Below, one piece after another: positions 2,035 to 49,697 of a stretch of DNA of 49,697 bases; position 1 is the stretch's first letter; the number at the start of each line of letters is the position of its first letter. Origin of the DNA: a phage. Both the position numbers and the translations under genes were made by a program. The stretch is from NCBI GenBank assembly GCA_026165385.1, contig GCA_026165385.1_4524.2, one strand, 5' to 3'. The notes under the pieces are model-generated. The model had not been told where the DNA came from. It saw only the letters and a program-made list of their open reading frames with translations, and did not search any database.

Positions 2035-2106
2035 GGCCCTGTAGCTCAATGGGAGAGCTGTCAGCTCATAACTGATAGGTAGCTGGATCGAAACCAGCCA
2101 GGGTCA
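2035..2106 (+). tRNA. tRNA, anticodon CAT (Met, or Ile if C34 is lysidine-modified)
   Basis: Cloverleaf by eye: acceptor GGCCCTG/CAGGGTC, D-stem GCTC/GAGC, anticodon loop CTCATAA, T-stem GCTGG/CCAGC; CCA encoded at 2107-2109. Confidence 0.75.
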
Positions 2107-2112
2107 CCAATC

Positions 2113-44019: not shown

Positions 44020-46731
44020 ATGAAAGAATTTTACTTAACGGTTGAACAGATTGGTGATTCAATTTTTGAACGTTACATCGATTCTAATGGCCGTGAACGT
44101 ACTCGTGAAGTAGAATATAAACCATCACTGTTTGCTCATTGTCCAGAAAGTCAGGCTACGAAATATTTTGATATCTACGGTAAGCCGTGTACTCGTAAGC
44201 TGTTCGCTAATATGCGTGATGCCTCACAATGGATTAAACGCATGGAAGATATCGGACTTGAAGCACTTGGCATGGACGATTTCAAATTGGCGTATTTGTC
44301 TGACACTTATAACTATGAAATCAAATACGACCATACAAAAATTCGTGTGGCTAACTTCGACATCGAAGTAACATCCACGGATGGGTTCCCTGAGCCGTCA
44401 CAAGCAAAACATCCGATTGATGCTATCACCCATTATGACTCAATTGACGACAGGTTCTACGTATTTGATCTATTGAATTCTCCATATGGTAATGTAGAAG
44501 AATGGTCTATTGAAATCGCTGCTAAGCTTCAAGAACAAGGCGGTGATGAAGTTCCATCTGAAATTATCGATAAAATCATTTATATGCCGTTCGATAACGA
44601 AAAAGAATTGTTGATGGAATATCTCAACTTCTGGCAACAGAAAACTCCTGTCATTTTGACTGGATGGAACGTTGAGTCATTTGATATTCCATATGTGTAT
44701 AACAGAATCAAGAATATTTTTGGCGAATCTACTGCGAAACGTTTATCACCACATCGTAAAACTCGTGTTAAAGTTATCGAAAACATGTATGGTTCTCGTG
44801 AAATCATTACATTGTTCGGTATCTCTGTTCTTGATTACATTGACCTTTACAAAAAATTCTCTTTTACCAATCAACCGTCGTATTCTCTGGATTACATTTC
44901 AGAATTTGAATTGAACGTCGGTAAACTGAAATATGACGGCCCTATTTCTAAGCTTCGTGAAAGCAATCACCAACGATATATTTCTTATAACATTATCGAC
45001 GTGTATCGTGTATTGCAAATTGATGCTAAGCGTCAGTTCATCAACTTGAGTTTGGACATGGGTTATTATGCTAAGATACAGATTCAATCTGTGTTTAGCC
45101 CAATTAAAACATGGGATGCTATTATTTTTAATAGCCTTAAAGAGCAGAACAAGGTGATTCCACAAGGTCGTTCGCATCCAGTTCAACCTTATCCTGGCGC
45201 TTTTGTTAAGGAACCTATTCCAAATCGATACAAATATGTAATGAGTTTCGACCTTACATCTCTGTATCCAAGTATTATTCGCCAAGTGAATATTAGCCCA
45301 GAAACAATAGCAGGAACGTTTAAAGTAGCTCCACTGCATGATTATATTAACGCAATCGCTGAACGTCCTTCAGATGTGTACAGTTGCTCTCCTAACGGCA
45401 TGATGTATTATAAAGACCGTGACGGTGTAGTTCCAACTGAAATCACTAAGGTCTTTAATCAACGTAAAGAACATAAAGGTTACATGCTTGCAGCTCAACG
45501 TAACGGTGAAATAATTAAAGAGGCGTTGCATAATCCTAATCTTTCTGTTGACGAACCATTAGATGTTGATTATCGTTTCGACTTCAGTGATGAGATTAAA
45601 GAAAAGATTAAAAAGTTGTCTGCTAAATCTCTTAATGAAATGTTGTTCAGAGCTCAACGTGCTGAAGTTGCAGGTATGACTGCACAAATTAACCGTAAAT
45701 TGCTTATCAACTCACTTTATGGTGCACTTGGCAACGTTTGGTTCCGTTATTATGATTTGCGTAATGCTACTGCAATCACAACATTCGGGCAAATGGCTTT
45801 ACAGTGGATTGAACGTAAAGTTAATGAATATCTGAATGAAGTTTGTGGTACAGAAGGTGAAGCTTTCGTTCTTTATGGTGATACAGACTCCATTTACGTA
45901 TCTGCTGATAAAATTATCGATAAAGTTGGTGAATCTAAATTCCGTGATACCAACCATTGGGTAGACTTCTTAGATAAGTTTGCACGTGAACGTATGGAAC
46001 CAGCTATTGATAAAGGTTTCCGTGAAATGTGTGAATACATGAACAATAAACAACACTTAATGTTCATGGACCGAGAAGCTATCGCTGGTCCTCCGCTCGG
46101 TTCTAAAGGTATTGGTGGATTCTGGACTGGTAAGAAACGTTATGCATTAAACGTGTGGGATATGGAAGGTACTCGTTACGCTGAGCCTAAACTCAAAATC
46201 ATGGGTCTAGAGACTCAGAAATCTTCGACCCCTAAAGCAGTACAGAAAGCTCTTAAAGAATGTATTCGTCGTATGCTTCAAGAAGGTGAAGAATCATTAC
46301 AAGAATATTTTAAAGAGTTTGAAAAAGAATTCCGTCAATTGAATTATATTAGCATCGCGTCGGTATCTTCTGCGAATAACATTGCTAAATATGATGTAGG
46401 TGGATATCCAGGACCTAAATGCCCATTCCATATTCGTGGAATTCTGACATATAACCGAGCTATCAAAGGTAATATTGATGCTCCACAAGTTGTAGAAGGC
46501 GAAAAGGTATACGTTCTGCCTTTACGTGATGGAAACCCGTTCGGTGATAAATGTATCGCATGGCCTTCTGGTACTGAAATCACAGATTTAATTAAAGACG
46601 ACGTACTTCATTGGATGGACTACACGGTTCTCCTTGAGAAGACATTTATTAAACCACTTGAAGGATTCACATCAGCAGCTAAACTCGATTACGAGAAGAA
46701 AGCATCTCTGTTCGATATGTTTGATTTTTGA
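44020..46731 (+). CDS. 43: DNA polymerase gp43 (family B, with 3'-5' exonuclease)
   Basis: 903 aa; exo motif FDIEV, polymerase motifs SLYPSII, KLLINSLYG and YGDTDS; sequence and length match my recollection of RB69 gp43. Confidence 0.97.
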   Translation: MKEFYLTVEQIGDSIFERYIDSNGRERTREVEYKPSLFAHCPESQATKYFDIYGKPCTRKLFANMRDASQWIKRMEDIGLEALGMDDFKLAYLSDTYNYEIKYDHTKIRVANFDIEVTSTDGFPEPSQAKHPIDAITHYDSIDDRFYVFDLLNSPYGNVEEWSIEIAAKLQEQGGDEVPSEIIDKIIYMPFDNEKELLMEYLNFWQQKTPVILTGWNVESFDIPYVYNRIKNIFGESTAKRLSPHRKTRVKVIENMYGSREIITLFGISVLDYIDLYKKFSFTNQPSYSLDYISEFELNVGKLKYDGPISKLRESNHQRYISYNIIDVYRVLQIDAKRQFINLSLDMGYYAKIQIQSVFSPIKTWDAIIFNSLKEQNKVIPQGRSHPVQPYPGAFVKEPIPNRYKYVMSFDLTSLYPSIIRQVNISPETIAGTFKVAPLHDYINAIAERPSDVYSCSPNGMMYYKDRDGVVPTEITKVFNQRKEHKGYMLAAQRNGEIIKEALHNPNLSVDEPLDVDYRFDFSDEIKEKIKKLSAKSLNEMLFRAQRAEVAGMTAQINRKLLINSLYGALGNVWFRYYDLRNATAITTFGQMALQWIERKVNEYLNEVCGTEGEAFVLYGDTDSIYVSADKIIDKVGESKFRDTNHWVDFLDKFARERMEPAIDKGFREMCEYMNNKQHLMFMDREAIAGPPLGSKGIGGFWTGKKRYALNVWDMEGTRYAEPKLKIMGLETQKSSTPKAVQKALKECIRRMLQEGEESLQEYFKEFEKEFRQLNYISIASVSSANNIAKYDVGGYPGPKCPFHIRGILTYNRAIKGNIDAPQVVEGEKVYVLPLRDGNPFGDKCIAWPSGTEITDLIKDDVLHWMDYTVLLEKTFIKPLEGFTSAAKLDYEKKASLFDMFDF

Positions 46732-46771
46732 TATAATGCCAAGGACGGCCAACTAATTAAATGAGAGAAAT

Positions 46772-47407
46772 ATGAAAACTACTCCTATTACTATCGCTAT
46801 TGACGCAATCGTAAAACAAGCTTCATCTCTTGCCACTATGGCTAAAGTAATTAGTCAAAACCCTGCCCGATATAATGCTATTCTTGAAACTCTTCGACGG
46901 CCTGGACTGAGTAATTATGAAAGTCGTGTAATTATTACAGGTGTTGGTAAGAACGCTAATATCGCAACTAAAGCTTCTGAGACATTTGCTTCACTAGGTA
47001 TTCCTAGCATGTATTTGAACACTGGGCATTATTCTCATGGTGACGCAGGATTTATTGCACCTAATGATGTATTAGTTCACATCAGTCGTTCTGGTAAGAC
47101 TGAAGAAATGATAGGTGTTGCTAAACATCTTCGTATGATTCGTCCTCAGGTTAAACAGATTCTGTTACATTGTAACCCTGACATTCCACAAGAATACGAA
47201 ACTCTTTTTGATTATACGTTCTGTACCGGTATCGCGGTAGAAGTTGACGAGAACTCTTTAGCTCCGACAATGTCTACTACATTGTTGTTAGCGCTTATCG
47301 ATACGTTCGCTATCAACCTTTCGTCTGAACGTGGATTTACCTCTAATGATTTCCTTAAGTTCCATCCAGGCGGTGCACTAGGTGCCATGTTACGAGGCGA
47401 ACAATGA
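46772..47407 (+). CDS. SIS-domain sugar phosphate isomerase (KdsD/GutQ arabinose-5-phosphate isomerase-like)
   Basis: Motifs VIITGVGKNANIATK, VLVHISRSGKTEEM, LAPTMSTT and FHPGGALGAML parallel the KdsD SIS domain; no CBS domains. Confidence 0.8.
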   Translation: MKTTPITIAIDAIVKQASSLATMAKVISQNPARYNAILETLRRPGLSNYESRVIITGVGKNANIATKASETFASLGIPSMYLNTGHYSHGDAGFIAPNDVLVHISRSGKTEEMIGVAKHLRMIRPQVKQILLHCNPDIPQEYETLFDYTFCTGIAVEVDENSLAPTMSTTLLLALIDTFAINLSSERGFTSNDFLKFHPGGALGAMLRGEQ

Positions 47408-47547
47408 AAGCAATAACAATAGGACTTTTACTATTGATGCTTGTCATGACTATCTACTGGAGCTTAACGGCTCCAGTAATGATTCCAACACTTGTAATTG
47501 GATGGATTATGATTGGACTACAAGCAAAGTATGAATGCTTTAACTAG
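47404..47547 (+). CDS. Small membrane peptide, 47 aa (not in ORF track)
   Basis: ATGA overlap with the SIS gene stop; hydrophobic sequence MKAITIGLLLLMLVMTIYWSLTAPVMIPTLVIGWIMIGL. Confidence 0.35.
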   Translation: MKAITIGLLLLMLVMTIYWSLTAPVMIPTLVIGWIMIGLQAKYECFN

Positions 47548-47560
47548 AATAGTGTACAAT
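47534..47560 (+). promoter_or_regulatory. Middle (MotA-type) promoter candidate
   Basis: MotA-box-like AATGCTTTA at 47534-47542 and TACAAT -10 at 47555-47560, 12 nt apart; SD GAGGA follows. Confidence 0.4.
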
Positions 47561-47588
47561 ACTCCTACTTACCAATGAGGACTTCAAC

Positions 47589-49274
47589 ATGAAAAAAGCT
47601 GTTATTCTTGGTGCTGGACTGGCAACTCGTTTGTATCCAATAACGCATCATATTCCTAAGGTGCTTGTTAACTATAAACAAGACACTATTCTGAGCAATT
47701 TGTATACAATTTATTCTGACCTTGGCGCAGATGAAATTATTGTAGTAGTTCATTCAAAATTTGCTGAAACTGTTCGAGCTTATTGTGAGCAAGAAGGGTT
47801 CAATGTGACTATTCGTACAGTTGATGAAGCGTATGGTTCTGCTTATGCTCTTGCTAAATTACACAAAGATTTAGACGGCCATAACGTAATTGTTAACTGG
47901 TGTGATATTATTCCTGATTTTGGTTCATGGTCTTGGAATGTTAACGCAATCTATGTTAAGGGTGACGAATGTCGATATAATTTCGACGGTGAAAATATCA
48001 CTAATGTAGGTGCAACAGGCGGTAATGTTGTAGGAATTTATCAGTTCAAAGACTGGGAATTCTACATGGGTTCTACTGATGAGGAAATTCATGAATACTG
48101 CAAAGGACGTGATTTCGTAGAATTCCTTTACAGCGGCGCATTCAATAAATCAGAGCTTATGAATCTAATTGATTTAGGTGATATGCCTAAACTTGAAAAA
48201 GCTCATGAAGTTCGTGAACTTAATCGTAGTTTTAATGCAGTTGAAATTGGTGAAGAAACTGTAACTAAATTCGCATTAACCGAACAGGGTCGAGCTCTTC
48301 AGAAAGATGAGATTTCGTGGTACTTGAAAGTGAAATCAGATTCAGTTCCTCAGTTAGTTTCTGTTAATGAAAATAACTTTGAAATGGAACGCATTAAAGG
48401 TAAGCCGGCATTTGAATATATTAAATCCAAATCAAGTCTTGCTCGTCCACAAATTGTTGATGCAATTTTAGATGCACTGAAATTCAGCACAGACACTTAT
48501 TTTGTAAGTCCTGAAACTGTCCGTCGTGATTTCACTAAAGAATTCTATACGAAAGTTATTGATCGTTGTGAAAGCATTCAACCATTGATTGATTCATTTG
48601 GTAAAATCACACATGTGAACTACACTAAGATTGGACGTCTGAAGCCAATGTTGAAACAAGCTTTAGAACACCTTATTCGTTATCATAACCGTTCTCAGGG
48701 ACAGTACTCTGTTATTCATGGCGACCCGAACTTCAGTAATACTATGATTACTGATAACGGCGAAGTCAAGTTTATCGACCCTCGTGGATATTTTGGCGAA
48801 ACCAAGATTTATGGGCCAAAATTGTATGATGAAGCTAAAGTGCTTTATGCTGTTTCAGGTTATGATGAATTCAACGCTAATCCGACCTGGGGACAGTTTA
48901 CTATTGATGAAACAACTTGTAATGTGACTATTAACATCAATCCATTAATTTACAAATATGGAAAGATGAGTTCGTTTAACGAGTATCATCATTTGGCAGT
49001 GGCAATTATCTGGATTGCATTAGGTGGTTATTTCAAGAATAATCCACTTAAAGCGGTAGCCGCATATTATAAAGGTATGGAACTTCTGACTAAGCAATTA
49101 CGTAACATGGGCCGTGTACTTCAGGACGGCTCTATTAGTTATGACATAGCAGAACCTGTAACGGCTACTCTTATTACAAAAAATCCTGGTAAATGGGTAC
49201 TAACTGATAAAGAAACTGGTGTTTCCTATCGTCCAATCGGTGGCGATATCACTCATCAATGGGAACGAATCTAA
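47589..49274 (+). CDS. Bifunctional sugar-1-phosphate nucleotidyltransferase / anomeric sugar kinase (APH-like), 561 aa
   Basis: N-terminus MKKAVILGAGLATRLYPITHHIPKVLV (G-x-G-T-R-L NTP-transferase motif); C-terminal kinase motifs IHGDPNFSN and FIDPRGYFG (aminoglycoside/choline kinase-like fold). Confidence 0.8.
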   Translation: MKKAVILGAGLATRLYPITHHIPKVLVNYKQDTILSNLYTIYSDLGADEIIVVVHSKFAETVRAYCEQEGFNVTIRTVDEAYGSAYALAKLHKDLDGHNVIVNWCDIIPDFGSWSWNVNAIYVKGDECRYNFDGENITNVGATGGNVVGIYQFKDWEFYMGSTDEEIHEYCKGRDFVEFLYSGAFNKSELMNLIDLGDMPKLEKAHEVRELNRSFNAVEIGEETVTKFALTEQGRALQKDEISWYLKVKSDSVPQLVSVNENNFEMERIKGKPAFEYIKSKSSLARPQIVDAILDALKFSTDTYFVSPETVRRDFTKEFYTKVIDRCESIQPLIDSFGKITHVNYTKIGRLKPMLKQALEHLIRYHNRSQGQYSVIHGDPNFSNTMITDNGEVKFIDPRGYFGETKIYGPKLYDEAKVLYAVSGYDEFNANPTWGQFTIDETTCNVTININPLIYKYGKMSSFNEYHHLAVAIIWIALGGYFKNNPLKAVAAYYKGMELLTKQLRNMGRVLQDGSISYDIAEPVTATLITKNPGKWVLTDKETGVSYRPIGGDITHQWERI

Positions 49275-49660
49275 TGCACCGTGTAGAAAACATGCTTAAT
49301 CTTTGTTTTGATGTCGATGATTGCATCACGGAATGGAATAACAATCGTGATTACGTGAACTTCAAACCAGACGTCGAAATGGTGTCTGCCATTAATGCCC
49401 TGTATGATGCAGGGCATACCATAACGCTTTACACTGCTCGTGGTATGAAGTCAGTAGGTCCTGGTCGTATAGCAATCGACATTCTCCCAAGTCTGATTCA
49501 GAACTTAGCAAACATTGGATTGAAGTACCATAATTTGCTAACACATAAACCAGTATATGATTGGATTATCGACGACAAAGCTATGCGTCCTGACGAATTC
49601 AAAGCTCTTATGAATAAAGGCGAATTCGAAACATTTAAATCGTATAAACCGAATCTATAA
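49274..49660 (+). CDS. HAD-superfamily phosphatase, 128 aa (alternative start 49259)
   Basis: HAD motif I CFDVDDC, motif II TLYTARG, motif IV DWIIDD; TAATG overlap with the upstream gene. Confidence 0.7.
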   Translation: MHRVENMLNLCFDVDDCITEWNNNRDYVNFKPDVEMVSAINALYDAGHTITLYTARGMKSVGPGRIAIDILPSLIQNLANIGLKYHNLLTHKPVYDWIIDDKAMRPDEFKALMNKGEFETFKSYKPNL

Positions 49661-49697
49661 TAATTTAAGTAAGACCTGCAAAAAACCATCGCATCAA

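What the first reader, a model, noticed from the sequence alone, without database searches (positions are those of the whole stretch)
46772..49660. Sugar-nucleotide biosynthesis cassette directly downstream of DNA polymerase: candidate DNA hypermodification donor pathway
Seen: three co-oriented genes follow gene 43. (1) 46772-47407 has SIS-domain motifs matching KdsD/GutQ-type arabinose-5-phosphate isomerases (ITGVGKNANIATK, HISRSGKTEEM, LAPTMSTT, HPGGALGAML). (2) 47589-49274 fuses an N-terminal sugar-1-phosphate nucleotidyltransferase motif (VILGAGLATRLYPITHHIPKVLV) to a C-terminal aminoglycoside/choline-kinase-like kinase (IHGDPNFSN, FIDPRGYFG), the fold used by anomeric sugar kinases such as NahK/AmgK. 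(3) 49274-49660 has HAD phosphatase motifs (CFDVDDC, TLYTARG, DWIIDD). A 47-aa membrane peptide and a MotA-type promoter candidate lie inside the cassette. Established: in T4 the interval next to gene 43 holds imm, gene 42 (dCMP hydroxymethylase) and beta-glucosyltransferase; the isomerase-kinase-phosphatase-nucleotidyltransferase logic parallels the GmhA/HldE/GmhB ADP-heptose pathway; some T-even relatives that lack glucosyltransferases (RB69) are reported to carry arabinosyl-hmC. Inference: the cassette converts ribulose-5-P via arabinose-5-P into an NDP-arabinose (or related NDP-pentose) donor for glycosylating hydroxymethylcytosine. The transferase itself is not in this window. I cannot tell from sequence whether this pathway has been biochemically described.
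Basis: partly seen in the sequence, partly recalled or inferred. Interest (0 to 1): 0.88.

Follow-up and report, generated by a model that had tools for sequence, protein, structure and literature searches.

The report
Known phage UDP-arabinose synthesis cassette

Summary
Downstream of an RB69-type DNA polymerase lie three co-oriented genes: a single-domain SIS arabinose-5-phosphate isomerase (46772-47407), a 561-aa sugar-1-phosphate nucleotidyltransferase fused to an APH/choline-kinase-fold kinase (47589-49274), and a small HAD phosphatase (49274-49660). The window is a Mosigvirus, 98.5% identical here to phage Bas46, whose GenBank record already says "UDP-arabinose biosynthesis". The HAD protein is 100% identical to PDB entry 9iqw.

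Thomas et al. (2018) predicted these genes. Lee et al. (NAR 2026) summarise the biochemistry of He et al. (2026) in phage HY126: ribulose-5-P, arabinose-5-P, arabinofuranose-1,5-bisphosphate, arabinofuranose-1-P, UDP-arabinofuranose.

One correction: the acceptor base is 5-hydroxycytosine, not hydroxymethylcytosine. The "gene 42" homologue is a flavin-dependent dCMP hydroxylase.

The 47-aa membrane peptide is not part of the pathway. It is a T-even backbone gene, also present but unannotated in T4.

Verdict: already known, low interest. The best side lead starts 20 nt past the window: a U32-family protein, with a chorismate mutase next to it in some lineages, may be an RlhA-like oxygen-independent cytosine hydroxylase.

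The parts
46772..47407 (+). Single-domain SIS arabinose-5-phosphate isomerase (orthologue of RB69 ORF055c/gp55). Proposed reaction: D-ribulose-5-P to D-arabinose-5-P.
   Evidence: Pfam SIS 1.4e-9. PHROG 5670 3e-116. TIGR00393 KpsF/GutQ 1e-31 and KdsD NF008141 6e-30, both sub-threshold because the CBS domains are missing. PDB 3etn 9.5e-25 and 2xhz 3e-18, with KdsD K59/H88/E111/E152/H193 aligned to K60/H89/E112/E157/H199. 99% identical to Bas46 bas46_0148, annotated 'putative phosphosugar isomerase involved in UDP-arabinose biosynthesis'.
47404..47547 (+). 47-aa single-pass membrane peptide (RB69 ORF054c homologue). Its start overlaps the SIS stop (ATGA). It is embedded in the cassette by position, but it is a conserved T-even backbone gene, not an arabinose-pathway enzyme. 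Function unknown.
   Evidence: PHROG 3610 7e-27. 60% identical to the LC53 peptide in the same position. tblastn finds it in 576 phage records, including T2, T4 and Dhakavirus. It is a 49-aa ORF between imm and gene 42 in T2, and an intact but unannotated one in T4. Invariant core PxMIPTL and C-terminal EC(F/I)N.
47536..47560 (+). MotA-type (T4 middle) promoter candidate: MotA box TGCTTTA (47536-47542), 12-nt spacer, -10 TACAAT (47555-47560). It lies 29 nt upstream of the 561-aa gene. The box overlaps codons C45-F46-N47 of the peptide.
   Evidence: The pattern TGCTTNA-N11-13-TANNNT occurs 13 times in the window against 2.92 expected, 11 of them on the + strand. The same box and -10 with a diverged spacer are present at the same place in LC53, and are identical in Bas46. 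This is sequence evidence only. Part of the box conservation may reflect the coding constraint.
47589..48212 (+). N-terminal domain (aa 1-208) of the 561-aa bifunctional enzyme (RB69 ORF53_52c / gp52:53; counterpart of HY126 AfhE): RmlA/LicC/MurU-type sugar-1-phosphate nucleotidyltransferase. Proposed reaction: arabinofuranose-1-P + UTP to UDP-arabinofuranose.
48213..49274 (+). C-terminal domain (aa 209-561, plus stop codon) of the same protein: APH/choline-kinase (eukaryotic-like kinase) fold. Proposed reaction: arabinose-5-P + ATP to arabinofuranose-1,5-bisphosphate (anomeric kinase).
49274..49660 (+). Small cap-less HAD-superfamily phosphatase (128 aa from Met at 49274; GenBank records use 49259). 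RB69 gp51 homologue and counterpart of HY126 AfhF. Proposed reaction: arabinofuranose-1,5-bisphosphate to arabinofuranose-1-P.
   Evidence: 100% identical over residues 5-133 to PDB 9iqw, E=8e-88. 1xpj 5e-10 with motifs DxD, T, K and DD aligned. TIGR01689 EcbF/BcbF capsule phosphatase 4e-13. PHROG 1238 5e-43, there mis-named 'phosphoheptose isomerase'. Start-codon context.

Best explanation
The interval is the sugar-donor half of the Mosigvirus (RB69-group) cytosine arabinosylation system.

Step 1 (inferred from homology and conserved catalytic residues): the SIS protein isomerises host pentose-phosphate-pathway D-ribulose-5-P to D-arabinose-5-P.

Step 2 (shown for the HY126 counterpart AfhE, according to NAR 2026; here the fold and motifs are shown): the C-terminal APH-fold kinase of the 561-aa protein phosphorylates the anomeric hydroxyl, giving arabinofuranose-1,5-bisphosphate.

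Step 3 (shown for HY126 AfhF; the window protein is identical to a crystallised protein): the small Mg-dependent HAD phosphatase removes the 5-phosphate, giving arabinofuranose-1-P.

Step 4 (shown for AfhE; here the fold and motifs are shown): the N-terminal RmlA/LicC-like nucleotidyltransferase condenses it with UTP to give UDP-D-arabinofuranose.

GT-B arabinosyltransferases encoded outside the window then attach one or two arabinoses to 5-hydroxycytosine. That base is made as 5-hydroxy-dCMP by a ThyA-like flavin hydroxylase. The resulting DNA resists restriction endonucleases.

Expression probably uses read-through from gene 43 plus a MotA-dependent middle promoter at 47536-47560 (inferred). 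The 47-aa membrane peptide is a bystander backbone gene.
For: Orthology: the cassette is 98.5% identical in DNA to Bas46 and present in 159 near-full-length phage records. The bifunctional protein is 99.8% identical to Bas46 and 98.8% to RB69 ORF53_52c. The HAD is 100% identical to PDB 9iqw.

Family assignments. Catalytic residues invariant.

Synteny in the closest relative: cassette, U32 protein, ThyA-like hydroxylase, 299-aa transferase candidate, kinase, uvsX. The same order is found in LC53 and DLP3.

Independent functional coupling: 890-955-aa proteins fuse HAD, SIS, NTase and kinase in one chain, with all ten catalytic positions conserved. A jumbo-phage contig repeats the set SIS + glycosyltransferase + NTase/kinase + HAD + ThyA homologue.

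Literature: genes predicted in 2018 (PMC6024577). RB69 DNA carries mono- and di-arabinosyl-5-hydroxycytosine, UDP-Araf is the donor used in vitro by DLP3 gp76+gp77, and the AfhE/AfhF activities are summarised (PMC13326640). Mosigvirus NP carries 5-ara-dC and 5-ara-ara-dC (PMC13390438).
Against: No enzyme of this particular phage was assayed, and its DNA chemistry is unknown to me.

I could not read He et al. 2026 or Mahler et al. 2025. The step order and the UDP specificity rest on the summary in NAR 2026, whose own Table 1 gives a different order (phosphatase first, then kinase on free arabinose).

The kinase domain misses every Pfam cut-off, and the SIS and HAD proteins miss the NCBIfam cut-offs.

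E. coli already makes arabinose-5-P with KdsD and GutQ. Dhakavirus relatives have no recognisable SIS gene in this slot. So the isomerase may be a flux booster rather than strictly required.
Confidence: 0.9

Rival explanations
1. One reading: the cassette supplies NDP-arabinose for glycosylating 5-hydroxymethylcytosine (ara-hmC), downstream of a gene-42-type dCMP hydroxymethylase.
For: Thomas et al. 2018 reported ara-hmC in RB69. The downstream ThyA-family gene is still annotated 'dCMP hydroxymethylase' in Bas46 and matches Pfam Thymidylat_synt.
Against: NAR 2026 uses NMR, MS and 18O2 labelling to show arabinose ether-linked to 5-hydroxycytosine, and a flavin-dependent 5-hydroxy-dCMP synthase. 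The Durham Collection paper calls the hmC assignment erroneous and finds 5-ara-dC in another Mosigvirus.
Confidence: 0.04
2. Same enzymes, different order. The HAD first dephosphorylates arabinose-5-P to free arabinose. The kinase then makes arabinose-1-P directly, as NahK or AmgK do on free sugars, and the NTase activates it. No bisphosphate intermediate is formed.
For: Table 1 of NAR 2026 annotates RB69 gp51 as 'dephosphorylates Araf5p to Ara' and the kinase domain as 'phosphorylates Ara to Araf1p'. The kinase fold is that of kinases acting on unphosphorylated substrates such as choline, aminoglycosides and fructosamine.
Against: The text of the same paper, citing in vitro work on HY126 AfhE/AfhF, describes arabinose-5-P kinase activity and dephosphorylation of the 1,5-bisphosphate. 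Structure searches in that paper link the HAD to GmhB-type bisphosphate phosphatases. Free arabinose would equilibrate to the pyranose form, whereas the donor used is the furanose.
Confidence: 0.07
3. The genes are auxiliary metabolic genes for host envelope glycans: arabinose-5-P for Kdo/LPS or capsule, as the database names 'capsule biosynthesis protein', 'GlmU' and 'phosphoheptose isomerase' suggest. On this reading they have nothing to do with DNA modification.
For: The closest characterised relatives of the SIS and HAD proteins belong to capsule and LPS pathways: KpsF/KdsD, and the EcbF/BcbF family TIGR01689. GenBank and PHROG names point the same way.
Against: There is no Kdo-8-P synthase or CMP-Kdo synthetase nearby. 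Synteny with a ThyA-like base-modifying enzyme and DNA glycosyltransferases is conserved across Mosigvirus, Winklervirus, Lazarusvirus and a jumbo phage. Phages carrying the cassette have arabinosylated DNA. The database names are transferred homology labels scoring below the family cut-offs.
Confidence: 0.02
4. The cassette activates a different pentose or uses a different nucleotide in this phage, for example UDP-xylose or a CDP/GDP-pentose, as was suggested for the Shewanella phage Thanatos homologue.
For: The Thanatos paper discusses its homologue TH1_060 (53% identical to RB69 ORF53_52c) as possibly producing activated xylose. The top structural neighbour of the NTase is a cytidylyltransferase, LicC. 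Nucleotide specificity cannot be read from sequence.
Against: The window proteins are 98.8-100% identical to those of RB69, Bas46 and the crystallised protein, from phages whose DNA carries arabinose. The SIS enzyme keeps the arabinose-5-P isomerase catalytic set. UDP-Araf, not UDP-Arap, served as donor in vitro. NAR 2026 treats Thanatos as mono-arabinosylated.
Confidence: 0.03

Closest known systems
RB69 gp55 / gp52:53 / gp51 and HY126 AfhE / AfhF: the phage UDP-D-arabinofuranose pathway for arabinosyl-5-hydroxycytosine DNA (Thomas 2018; Mahler 2025; He 2026; Lee 2026)
   Same: Same genes in the same order after gene 43. Identity is 98.8-100% at protein level. The domain architecture is the same, as is the proposed chemistry.
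   Different: Nothing of substance. In this window the 561-aa gene is intact, whereas the RB69 GenBank record splits it through a sequencing error.
GmhA / HldE (or HldA+HldC) / GmhB ADP-L-glycero-D-manno-heptose pathway
   Same: The logic is identical: SIS-fold isomerase, anomeric kinase making a bisphosphate, HAD phosphatase removing the distal phosphate, then nucleotidyltransferase. Kinase and transferase are fused in one protein.
   Different: This is analogy, not homology, for the two central activities. From established knowledge, the HldE kinase is ribokinase/PfkB-fold and its transferase is a cytidylyltransferase-fold adenylyltransferase. Here the kinase is APH/choline-kinase fold and the transferase is RmlA/LicC fold, in the opposite domain order. 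The substrate is a pentose and the nucleotide is UDP.
AmgK/MurU (MurNAc recycling) and LicA/LicC (phosphocholine activation)
   Same: Both pair an APH/choline-kinase-fold kinase with an RmlA-like nucleotidyltransferase. MurU, LicC and LicA are among the best structural matches.
   Different: Those are separate proteins acting on unphosphorylated substrates. They need no isomerase and no phosphatase. Here the two are fused and the kinase substrate is already 5-phosphorylated.
KdsD / GutQ / KpsF arabinose-5-phosphate isomerases, especially the single-domain forms (Bacteroides fragilis 3etn, 5uqi)
   Same: SIS fold. All five KdsD active-site residues are conserved, and the E-values to solved isomerases are 1e-18 to 1e-25.
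   Different: There is no tandem CBS domain (211 aa against about 320-330), so the NCBIfam equivalog cut-offs are not reached. The product feeds a DNA modification rather than Kdo.
HAD-SIS-NTase-kinase four-domain fusion proteins (about 890-955 aa) in giant-virus-like contigs, metagenomes and an amoebozoan transcriptome
   Same: They combine the same four activities. The NTase/kinase part is 30-35% identical and all ten catalytic positions are conserved.
   Different: They are single polypeptides. Their HAD is a classical capped HAD_2/PF00702 type, not the small 1xpj/EcbF type. The product and its acceptor are unknown. The genomic context is that of a eukaryotic giant virus rather than a phage.

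Membership tests
Phage UDP-arabinofuranose / arabinosyl-5-hydroxycytosine system (RB69 gp55, gp52:53, gp51; HY126 AfhE, AfhF) | Orthology of all three enzymes to the RB69/Bas46/HY126 proteins | tested here: met
   DNA is 98.5% identical to Bas46. Protein identities to Bas46: SIS 99%, NTase/kinase 99.8%, HAD 100%. RB69 98.8%. HAD 100% identical to PDB 9iqw.
Phage UDP-arabinofuranose / arabinosyl-5-hydroxycytosine system | Synteny with the ThyA-like 5-hydroxy-dCMP synthase and the DNA arabinosyltransferase | tested here: inconclusive
   The window ends 37 nt after the HAD stop, and none of these genes is inside it. In the 98.5%-identical Bas46 genome they follow within 3.5 kb, as they do in LC53 and DLP3.
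Phage UDP-arabinofuranose / arabinosyl-5-hydroxycytosine system | Virion DNA contains arabinosylated 5-hydroxycytosine | not testable with these tools
   Shown for RB69, DLP3, NP, Bas46 and Bas47 in the literature, not for this isolate.
Phage UDP-arabinofuranose / arabinosyl-5-hydroxycytosine system | Enzymatic conversion of arabinose-5-P to UDP-Araf | not testable with these tools
   Reported for HY126 AfhE/AfhF, as summarised in PMC13326640. The primary paper is not readable here.
KdsD/GutQ/KpsF arabinose-5-phosphate isomerase | SIS domain with catalytic Lys, two His and two Glu (E. coli KdsD K59, H88, E111, E152, H193; residue list recalled from the KdsD literature) | tested here: met
   PF01380 1.4e-9. 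Alignments to 2xhz and 5uqi place K60, H89, E112, E157 and H199 at those positions.
KdsD/GutQ/KpsF arabinose-5-phosphate isomerase | C-terminal tandem CBS domains and the full-length family score | tested here: not met
   Only 211 aa and no CBS hit. TIGR00393 scores 110 bits against a cut-off of 203.7, and the KdsD equivalog 105 bits against 505. It resembles the single-domain isomerases 3etn and 5uqi instead.
Sugar-1-phosphate nucleotidyltransferase (PF00483; RmlA/LicC/MurU type) | N-terminal G-x-G-x-R-L...PK signature and Rossmann-like fold | tested here: met
APH / choline-kinase (eukaryotic-like kinase) superfamily | Bilobal kinase fold with beta3 Lys, alphaC Glu, HxDxxxxN catalytic loop and a Mg-binding Asp | tested here: met
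APH / choline-kinase (eukaryotic-like kinase) superfamily | Score above the gathering threshold of a curated Pfam kinase family | tested here: not met
   Fructosamin_kin 17.1 against 22.4, EcKL 16.2 against 22, APH 14.3 against 23.2. It is a divergent subfamily of its own (PHROG 4098, function listed as unknown).
HAD-superfamily phosphatase (cap-less; EcbF/BcbF / 1xpj type) | Motifs I (DxD), II (T/S), III (K) and IV (DD) | tested here: met
   FDVDDC, YTARG, HKP and IIDD align with DLDGT, STARN, GKP and YIDD of 1xpj, E=5e-10. TIGR01689 4e-13, 49 bits against a cut-off of 162. No Pfam model matches.
GmhA/HldE/GmhB ADP-heptose pathway | PfkB/ribokinase-fold kinase fused to a cytidylyltransferase-fold adenylyltransferase (HldE; architecture from established knowledge) | tested here: not met
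   The kinase half matches APH/ChoK-fold structures and the transferase half RmlA/LicC-fold structures. The pathway works like this family but is not a member.
T4 MotA-dependent middle promoter | MotA box (a/t)(a/t)(a/t)TGCTTtA about 12 nt upstream of a TAnnnT -10 element (consensus from established T4 knowledge) | tested here: met
   GAATGCTTTA-N12-TACAAT at 47533-47560. The pattern is enriched 13 against 2.9 expected and conserved in LC53. Promoter activity itself is not testable here.

The most novel reading that the evidence does not exclude
For the three cassette genes themselves, nothing novel remains. The most novel reading my evidence leaves open concerns the gene that starts 20 nt beyond the window's end. 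This is a U32-family protein, the homologue of RB69 gp50, which the 2026 NAR paper labels only 'sugar or heterocycle reductase'. It could be an RlhA-like, Fe-S and prephenate-dependent, O2-independent cytosine-5 hydroxylase. If so, it would let these phages make 5-hydroxycytosine, the acceptor for the UDP-arabinose made here, when the host grows anaerobically and the O2-dependent ThyA-like flavin hydroxylase cannot work.

Support: Pfam Peptidase_U32 7e-11. A chorismate mutase, which makes prephenate, lies next to it in LC53 and in Erwinia phage Virsaitis27. There are 13 conserved Cys, including Cx4Cx3Cx2C. All listed hosts are facultative anaerobes, and the gene is absent from DLP3, a phage of strictly aerobic Acinetobacter. 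RlhA makes exactly 5-hydroxycytidine in rRNA (PMC5727448). Prephenate is the O donor for U32 enzymes (PMC10990095).

Caveats: E. coli Dhakaviruses lack the gene. He 2026 and Mahler 2025, which I could not read, may already address it.
Probability: 0.25. Interest if true: 0.6.

Novelty: already known. Interest (0 to 1): 0.15.

Why it matters
Arabinosylated 5-hydroxycytosine makes phage DNA resistant to most restriction enzymes. According to the literature it also changes sensitivity to other defence systems, which matters when choosing and engineering therapeutic phages. The cassette is also a compact enzymatic route to UDP-D-arabinofuranose, a rare sugar nucleotide. All of that has been recognised in print, so the value of this finding is confirmation: a reader working from sequence alone reconstructed the published pathway logic correctly. 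The remaining open points lie at the edges:
- the role of the adjacent U32 protein;
- why some lineages lack the isomerase;
- what the fused four-domain versions do in giant viruses.

Tried and rejected
(1) Reading the two primary papers (Mahler 2025, Cell Host Microbe; He 2026, Nat Chem Biol) failed because neither is held. I rely on the NAR 2026 summary of them.

(2) A full-text search for 'ara-hC' returned only irrelevant hepatocellular-carcinoma papers. A search for 'HY126' found only the NAR paper.

(3) A single-sequence AlphaFold model of the HAD protein was poor (pLDDT 38). The Foldseek search with it gave only noise and did not retrieve 9iqw. I therefore could not obtain the title or source organism of 9iqw. 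That it is HY126 AfhF is an inference.

(4) I considered the 47-aa peptide as a cassette-specific membrane component and rejected that. Homologues exist in T2, T4 and Dhakavirus, next to imm.

(5) I looked for a T4 Imm homologue in the window and found none (best E=0.3).

(6) I tested whether the 79-aa ORF after the U32 gene in Bas46 is a diverged chorismate mutase. There is no similarity and no family hit.

(7) I tested whether the Dhakavirus 166-aa protein in the isomerase slot is a diverged SIS protein. There is no significant similarity, no Pfam family and no PDB match.

(8) The sigma-70 promoter and terminator scans gave no more matches than shuffled sequence.

(9) Base composition shows no sign of recent foreign origin for the cassette. 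Its GC of 0.37-0.39 matches the rest of the window.

Full report
WHAT IS THERE. The window is a T-even-type phage region. All genes near the finding run on the + strand: clamp loader, regA, and a 903-aa RB69-type DNA polymerase ending at 46731. Four ORFs follow, at 46772-47407 (211 aa), 47404-47547 (47 aa), 47589-49274 (561 aa) and 49259/49274-49660 (133/128 aa). GC content across the cassette (0.37-0.39) matches the rest of the window. A megablast of 46700-49697 against deposited phage genomes finds 186 records, 159 of them covering at least 80% of the query. The best is Escherichia phage ChristianSchoenbein (Bas46, genus Mosigvirus) at 98.5% identity. The window therefore comes from an RB69-group phage.

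CHECKING THE THREE ASSIGNMENTS.

Gene 1 is a SIS-domain protein (Pfam E=1.4e-9, above cut-off). It belongs to PHROG 5670, 'arabinose 5-phosphate isomerase' (3e-116). It matches the solved arabinose-5-P isomerases 3etn (9.5e-25) and 5uqi (2.4e-22), and the E. coli KdsD SIS domain 2xhz (3e-18). In those alignments the KdsD active-site residues (K59, H88, E111, E152, H193; list recalled from the KdsD literature) correspond to K60, H89, E112, E157 and H199. The protein lacks the CBS pair of KdsD and GutQ, so it stays below the NCBIfam equivalog cut-offs. It resembles the single-domain isomerases.

Gene 3 has no Pfam match. It is nevertheless 100% identical over residues 5-133 to PDB entry 9iqw, deposited as 'Capsule biosynthesis protein'. 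It also aligns at 5e-10 with the HAD-fold protein 1xpj, with all four HAD motifs in register. NCBIfam's capsule-biosynthesis phosphatase family TIGR01689 matches at 4e-13. The crystallised construct begins at the Met encoded at 49274. That codon overlaps the upstream stop (TAATG) and has a GGGA ten bases upstream, whereas 49259 has no such context.

IT IS ALREADY DESCRIBED. The Bas46 record annotates these very genes as 'putative phosphosugar isomerase involved in UDP-arabinose biosynthesis', 'putative enzyme involved in UDP-arabinose biosynthesis' and 'putative phosphatase'.

Thomas et al. 2018 (PMC6024577) found arabinose in RB69 DNA. They showed that ORF053c and ORF052c are one 561-residue gene split by a sequencing error. 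They proposed that it and the SIS protein ORF055c generate UDP-arabinose, and they noted the gene module between the polymerase and uvsX.

Lee et al. 2026 (PMC13326640) showed that RB69 and Acinetobacter phage DLP3 carry mono- and poly-arabinosylated cytosine. The sugar is ether-linked to 5-hydroxycytosine, which is made as the mononucleotide by a ThyA-like flavin enzyme. They assign gp55, gp52:53 and gp51 to the route ribulose-5-P, arabinofuranose-5-P, arabinofuranose-1,5-bisphosphate, arabinofuranose-1-P, UDP-arabinofuranose. For this they cite in vitro work on the HY126 proteins AfhE (arabinose-5-P kinase plus UDP-arabinose pyrophosphorylase) and AfhF (Mg-dependent phosphatase) from He et al. 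2026, and the study of Bas46, Bas47 and Serratia phages by Mahler et al. 2025. UDP-Araf, not UDP-Arap, was the donor that worked in their transferase assay.

A further paper finds 5-ara-dC and 5-ara-ara-dC in another Mosigvirus and calls the earlier hydroxymethyl assignment erroneous. I could not read He 2026 or Mahler 2025 directly.

The pathway logic, including the analogy with GmhA/HldE/GmhB, matches the published scheme. The resemblance is functional only. The kinase here is APH/choline-kinase fold and the transferase RmlA/LicC fold, whereas HldE (from established knowledge) combines a ribokinase-fold kinase with a cytidylyltransferase-fold enzyme. The nearest homologous pairs are AmgK/MurU and LicA/LicC.

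The acceptor base needs correcting: it is 5-hydroxycytosine, not hydroxymethylcytosine. tblastn with the Bas46 transferase candidate, the DLP3 transferases, the ThyA-like hydroxylase, the U32 protein and the kinase finds nothing in the window. In Bas46 these genes begin just past the window's end.

INDEPENDENT SUPPORT FOR FUNCTIONAL COUPLING. A database search with the 561-aa protein returned 308 homologues. Among the distant ones (30-35% identity) are proteins of 890-955 aa that carry HAD, SIS, NTP-transferase and kinase domains in one chain. All ten catalytic positions of the NTase/kinase part are conserved in them.

A 350-kb jumbo-phage contig carries a SIS gene, a GT2 glycosyltransferase, the NTase/kinase, a HAD of a different subfamily, a thymidylate-synthase homologue and a T4 EndoIV-like gene in one block. 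The link between this sugar-nucleotide module and pyrimidine modification therefore recurs outside the T-even group.

THE PEPTIDE AND THE PROMOTER. The 47-aa ORF is a genuine conserved gene (PHROG 3610, 7e-27), and it is 60% identical in LC53 at the same position. It is not specific to arabinosylating phages. tblastn finds it in 576 records. In T2 it is a 49-aa ORF between imm and gene 42. In T4 an intact 49-aa ORF lies unannotated in the 153-nt gap between imm and 42. In Dhakavirus VR5 it follows imm and precedes the cassette. The alignment shows an invariant PxMIPTL core and an EC(F/I)N end. The cassette was evidently assembled around a backbone gene, at different points in different genera.

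The promoter candidate is TGCTTTA-N12-TACAAT at 47536-47560. The pattern is over-represented in the window: 13 matches against 2.9 expected, none of 100 shuffles reaching 13, and 11 matches on the coding strand. The box and the -10 element are kept in LC53 although the spacer differs. The box overlaps the last codons of the peptide, so part of that conservation may be a coding constraint.

SIDE OBSERVATIONS.

(i) Twenty nucleotides beyond the window begins a 386-aa Peptidase_U32-family gene (7e-11), the homologue of RB69 gp50. NAR 2026 calls it only a 'sugar or heterocycle reductase' and never mentions U32, prephenate or chorismate. In LC53 it is followed by a type II chorismate mutase (1.7e-11), and Erwinia phage Virsaitis27 has the same pairing.

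U32 proteins are Fe-S enzymes for O2-independent hydroxylation with prephenate as oxygen donor (PMC10990095). The U32 member RlhA makes 5-hydroxycytidine in 23S rRNA (PMC5727448). The phage protein keeps 13 cysteines, including C340-x4-C345-x3-C349-x2-C352. It is at least 82% identical across 222 phage records, even where the NTase/kinase has drifted to 43%. Every host genus listed is a facultative anaerobe. Acinetobacter is not among the ten genera listed, although 57 Acinetobacter phages carry the NTase/kinase, and DLP3 lacks the gene. An O2-independent route to 5-hydroxycytosine is therefore a reasonable hypothesis. It is weakened by the gene's absence from E. coli Dhakaviruses, and the papers I could not read may already address it.

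(ii) Two of the four-domain fusion proteins lie in contexts typical of giant viruses: MutS with HNH, RNA polymerase Rpb2 and Rpb10, an SNF2 helicase, and a Ulp1-type peptidase. Another comes from an amoebozoan transcriptome.

(iii) Dhakavirus AnYang has the NTase/kinase (43% identity) and the HAD (64%), but the 166-aa protein in the isomerase slot matches nothing. Those phages may depend on the host's KdsD or GutQ.

VERDICT. It would not surprise a specialist and opens no new question by itself. Interest is low (0.15). The only correction of substance concerns the acceptor base, and the only additions lie at the margins.

Noticed in passing
Just outside the window (would start near 49717); L001 11018-12178 (Bas46); L002 8681-9850 and 9847-10191 (LC53): A U32-family protein (RB69 gp50 homologue) follows the cassette, and a type II chorismate mutase follows it in LC53 and Erwinia phage Virsaitis27. 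U32 enzymes such as RlhA make 5-hydroxycytidine in rRNA without O2, using prephenate. The phage protein has 13 conserved Cys (including Cx4Cx3Cx2C), is found in 222 phage records whose listed hosts are all facultative anaerobes, and is absent from Acinetobacter phage DLP3. It may be an anaerobic route to 5-hydroxycytosine. The papers I could read do not mention this.
   Followed up: partly
L011 2228-2377, minus strand (= T4 NC_000866 26227-26376): T4 has an intact 49-aa membrane ORF (MKSKIIAALLL...QVKYECIN) in the 'empty' 153-nt gap between imm and gene 42. It is not annotated in the RefSeq record. It is homologous to the window's 47-aa peptide, and its start overlaps the imm stop codon.
   Followed up: yes
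L006 8001-10781; L012 5545-8283; proteins P0084, P0088, P0089, P0091, P0092, P0096, P0108: Single polypeptides of 890-955 aa fuse HAD, SIS, NTP-transferase and kinase domains, with all catalytic residues kept. Two of them sit among giant-virus hallmark genes (MutS+HNH, Rpb2, Rpb10, SNF2 helicase, Ulp1-type peptidase). One comes from the amoebozoan Ceratiomyxa transcriptome. Their product and target are unknown.
   Followed up: partly
L014 4135-10689 (JGI metagenome contig of 350 kb): A jumbo-phage-like contig carries SIS, a GT2 glycosyltransferase, the NTase/kinase homologue, a Hydrolase_3-type HAD, a thymidylate-synthase homologue and a T4 EndoIV-like gene in one block. This looks like a distant variant of the same base-glycosylation system, with a different transferase fold.
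   Followed up: no
L004 5353-5853 (Dhakavirus AnYang); L009 2648-3148 (VR5): Dhakaviruses keep the NTase/kinase (43% identity) and the HAD (64%), but the 166-aa protein in the isomerase slot has no detectable similarity to SIS proteins, any Pfam family or any PDB chain. These phages may rely on host KdsD or GutQ for arabinose-5-P.
   Followed up: partly
window 1948, 7460, 17740, 30027, 32272, 37332, 40025, 46987, 47536, 48841 (+ strand) and others: MotA-type middle-promoter patterns (TGCTTNA-N11-13-TANNNT) occur 13 times against 2.9 expected, 11 of them on the coding strand. This suggests a dense set of middle promoters across this early/middle gene region.
   Followed up: partly
window 49259-49660, and database names for all three genes: Public annotation is inconsistent. 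The HAD is called 'phosphoheptose isomerase' (PHROG 1238 and several RefSeq records) or 'capsule biosynthesis protein'. The bifunctional enzyme is called 'GlmU' or 'hypothetical'. The HAD start is usually set at an upstream in-frame ATG with no ribosome-binding site.
   Followed up: yes
L001 11018-12178 compared with L001 8890-10575 across phage genera: The U32 protein is far more conserved than its neighbours. For example, in Klebsiella phage F48 it is 86% identical while the NTase/kinase is 43%, and in Shewanella phage Thanatos 82% against 54%. This points to very strong constraint or recent horizontal spread.
   Followed up: no
PMC13326640, Table 1 compared with the section on UDP-arabinose genes: The published table says the HAD dephosphorylates arabinose-5-P to arabinose and the kinase acts on free arabinose. 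The text describes a 1,5-bisphosphate intermediate. The order of steps should be checked in the primary paper.
   Followed up: no
window 2035-2109 and 2113-2189: Two adjacent tRNA genes: tRNA with anticodon CAT (annotated as tRNA-Ile/ATA in Bas46, so probably lysidine-modified) and tRNA-Arg(TCT). This pair is ordinary for T-even phages.
   Followed up: no
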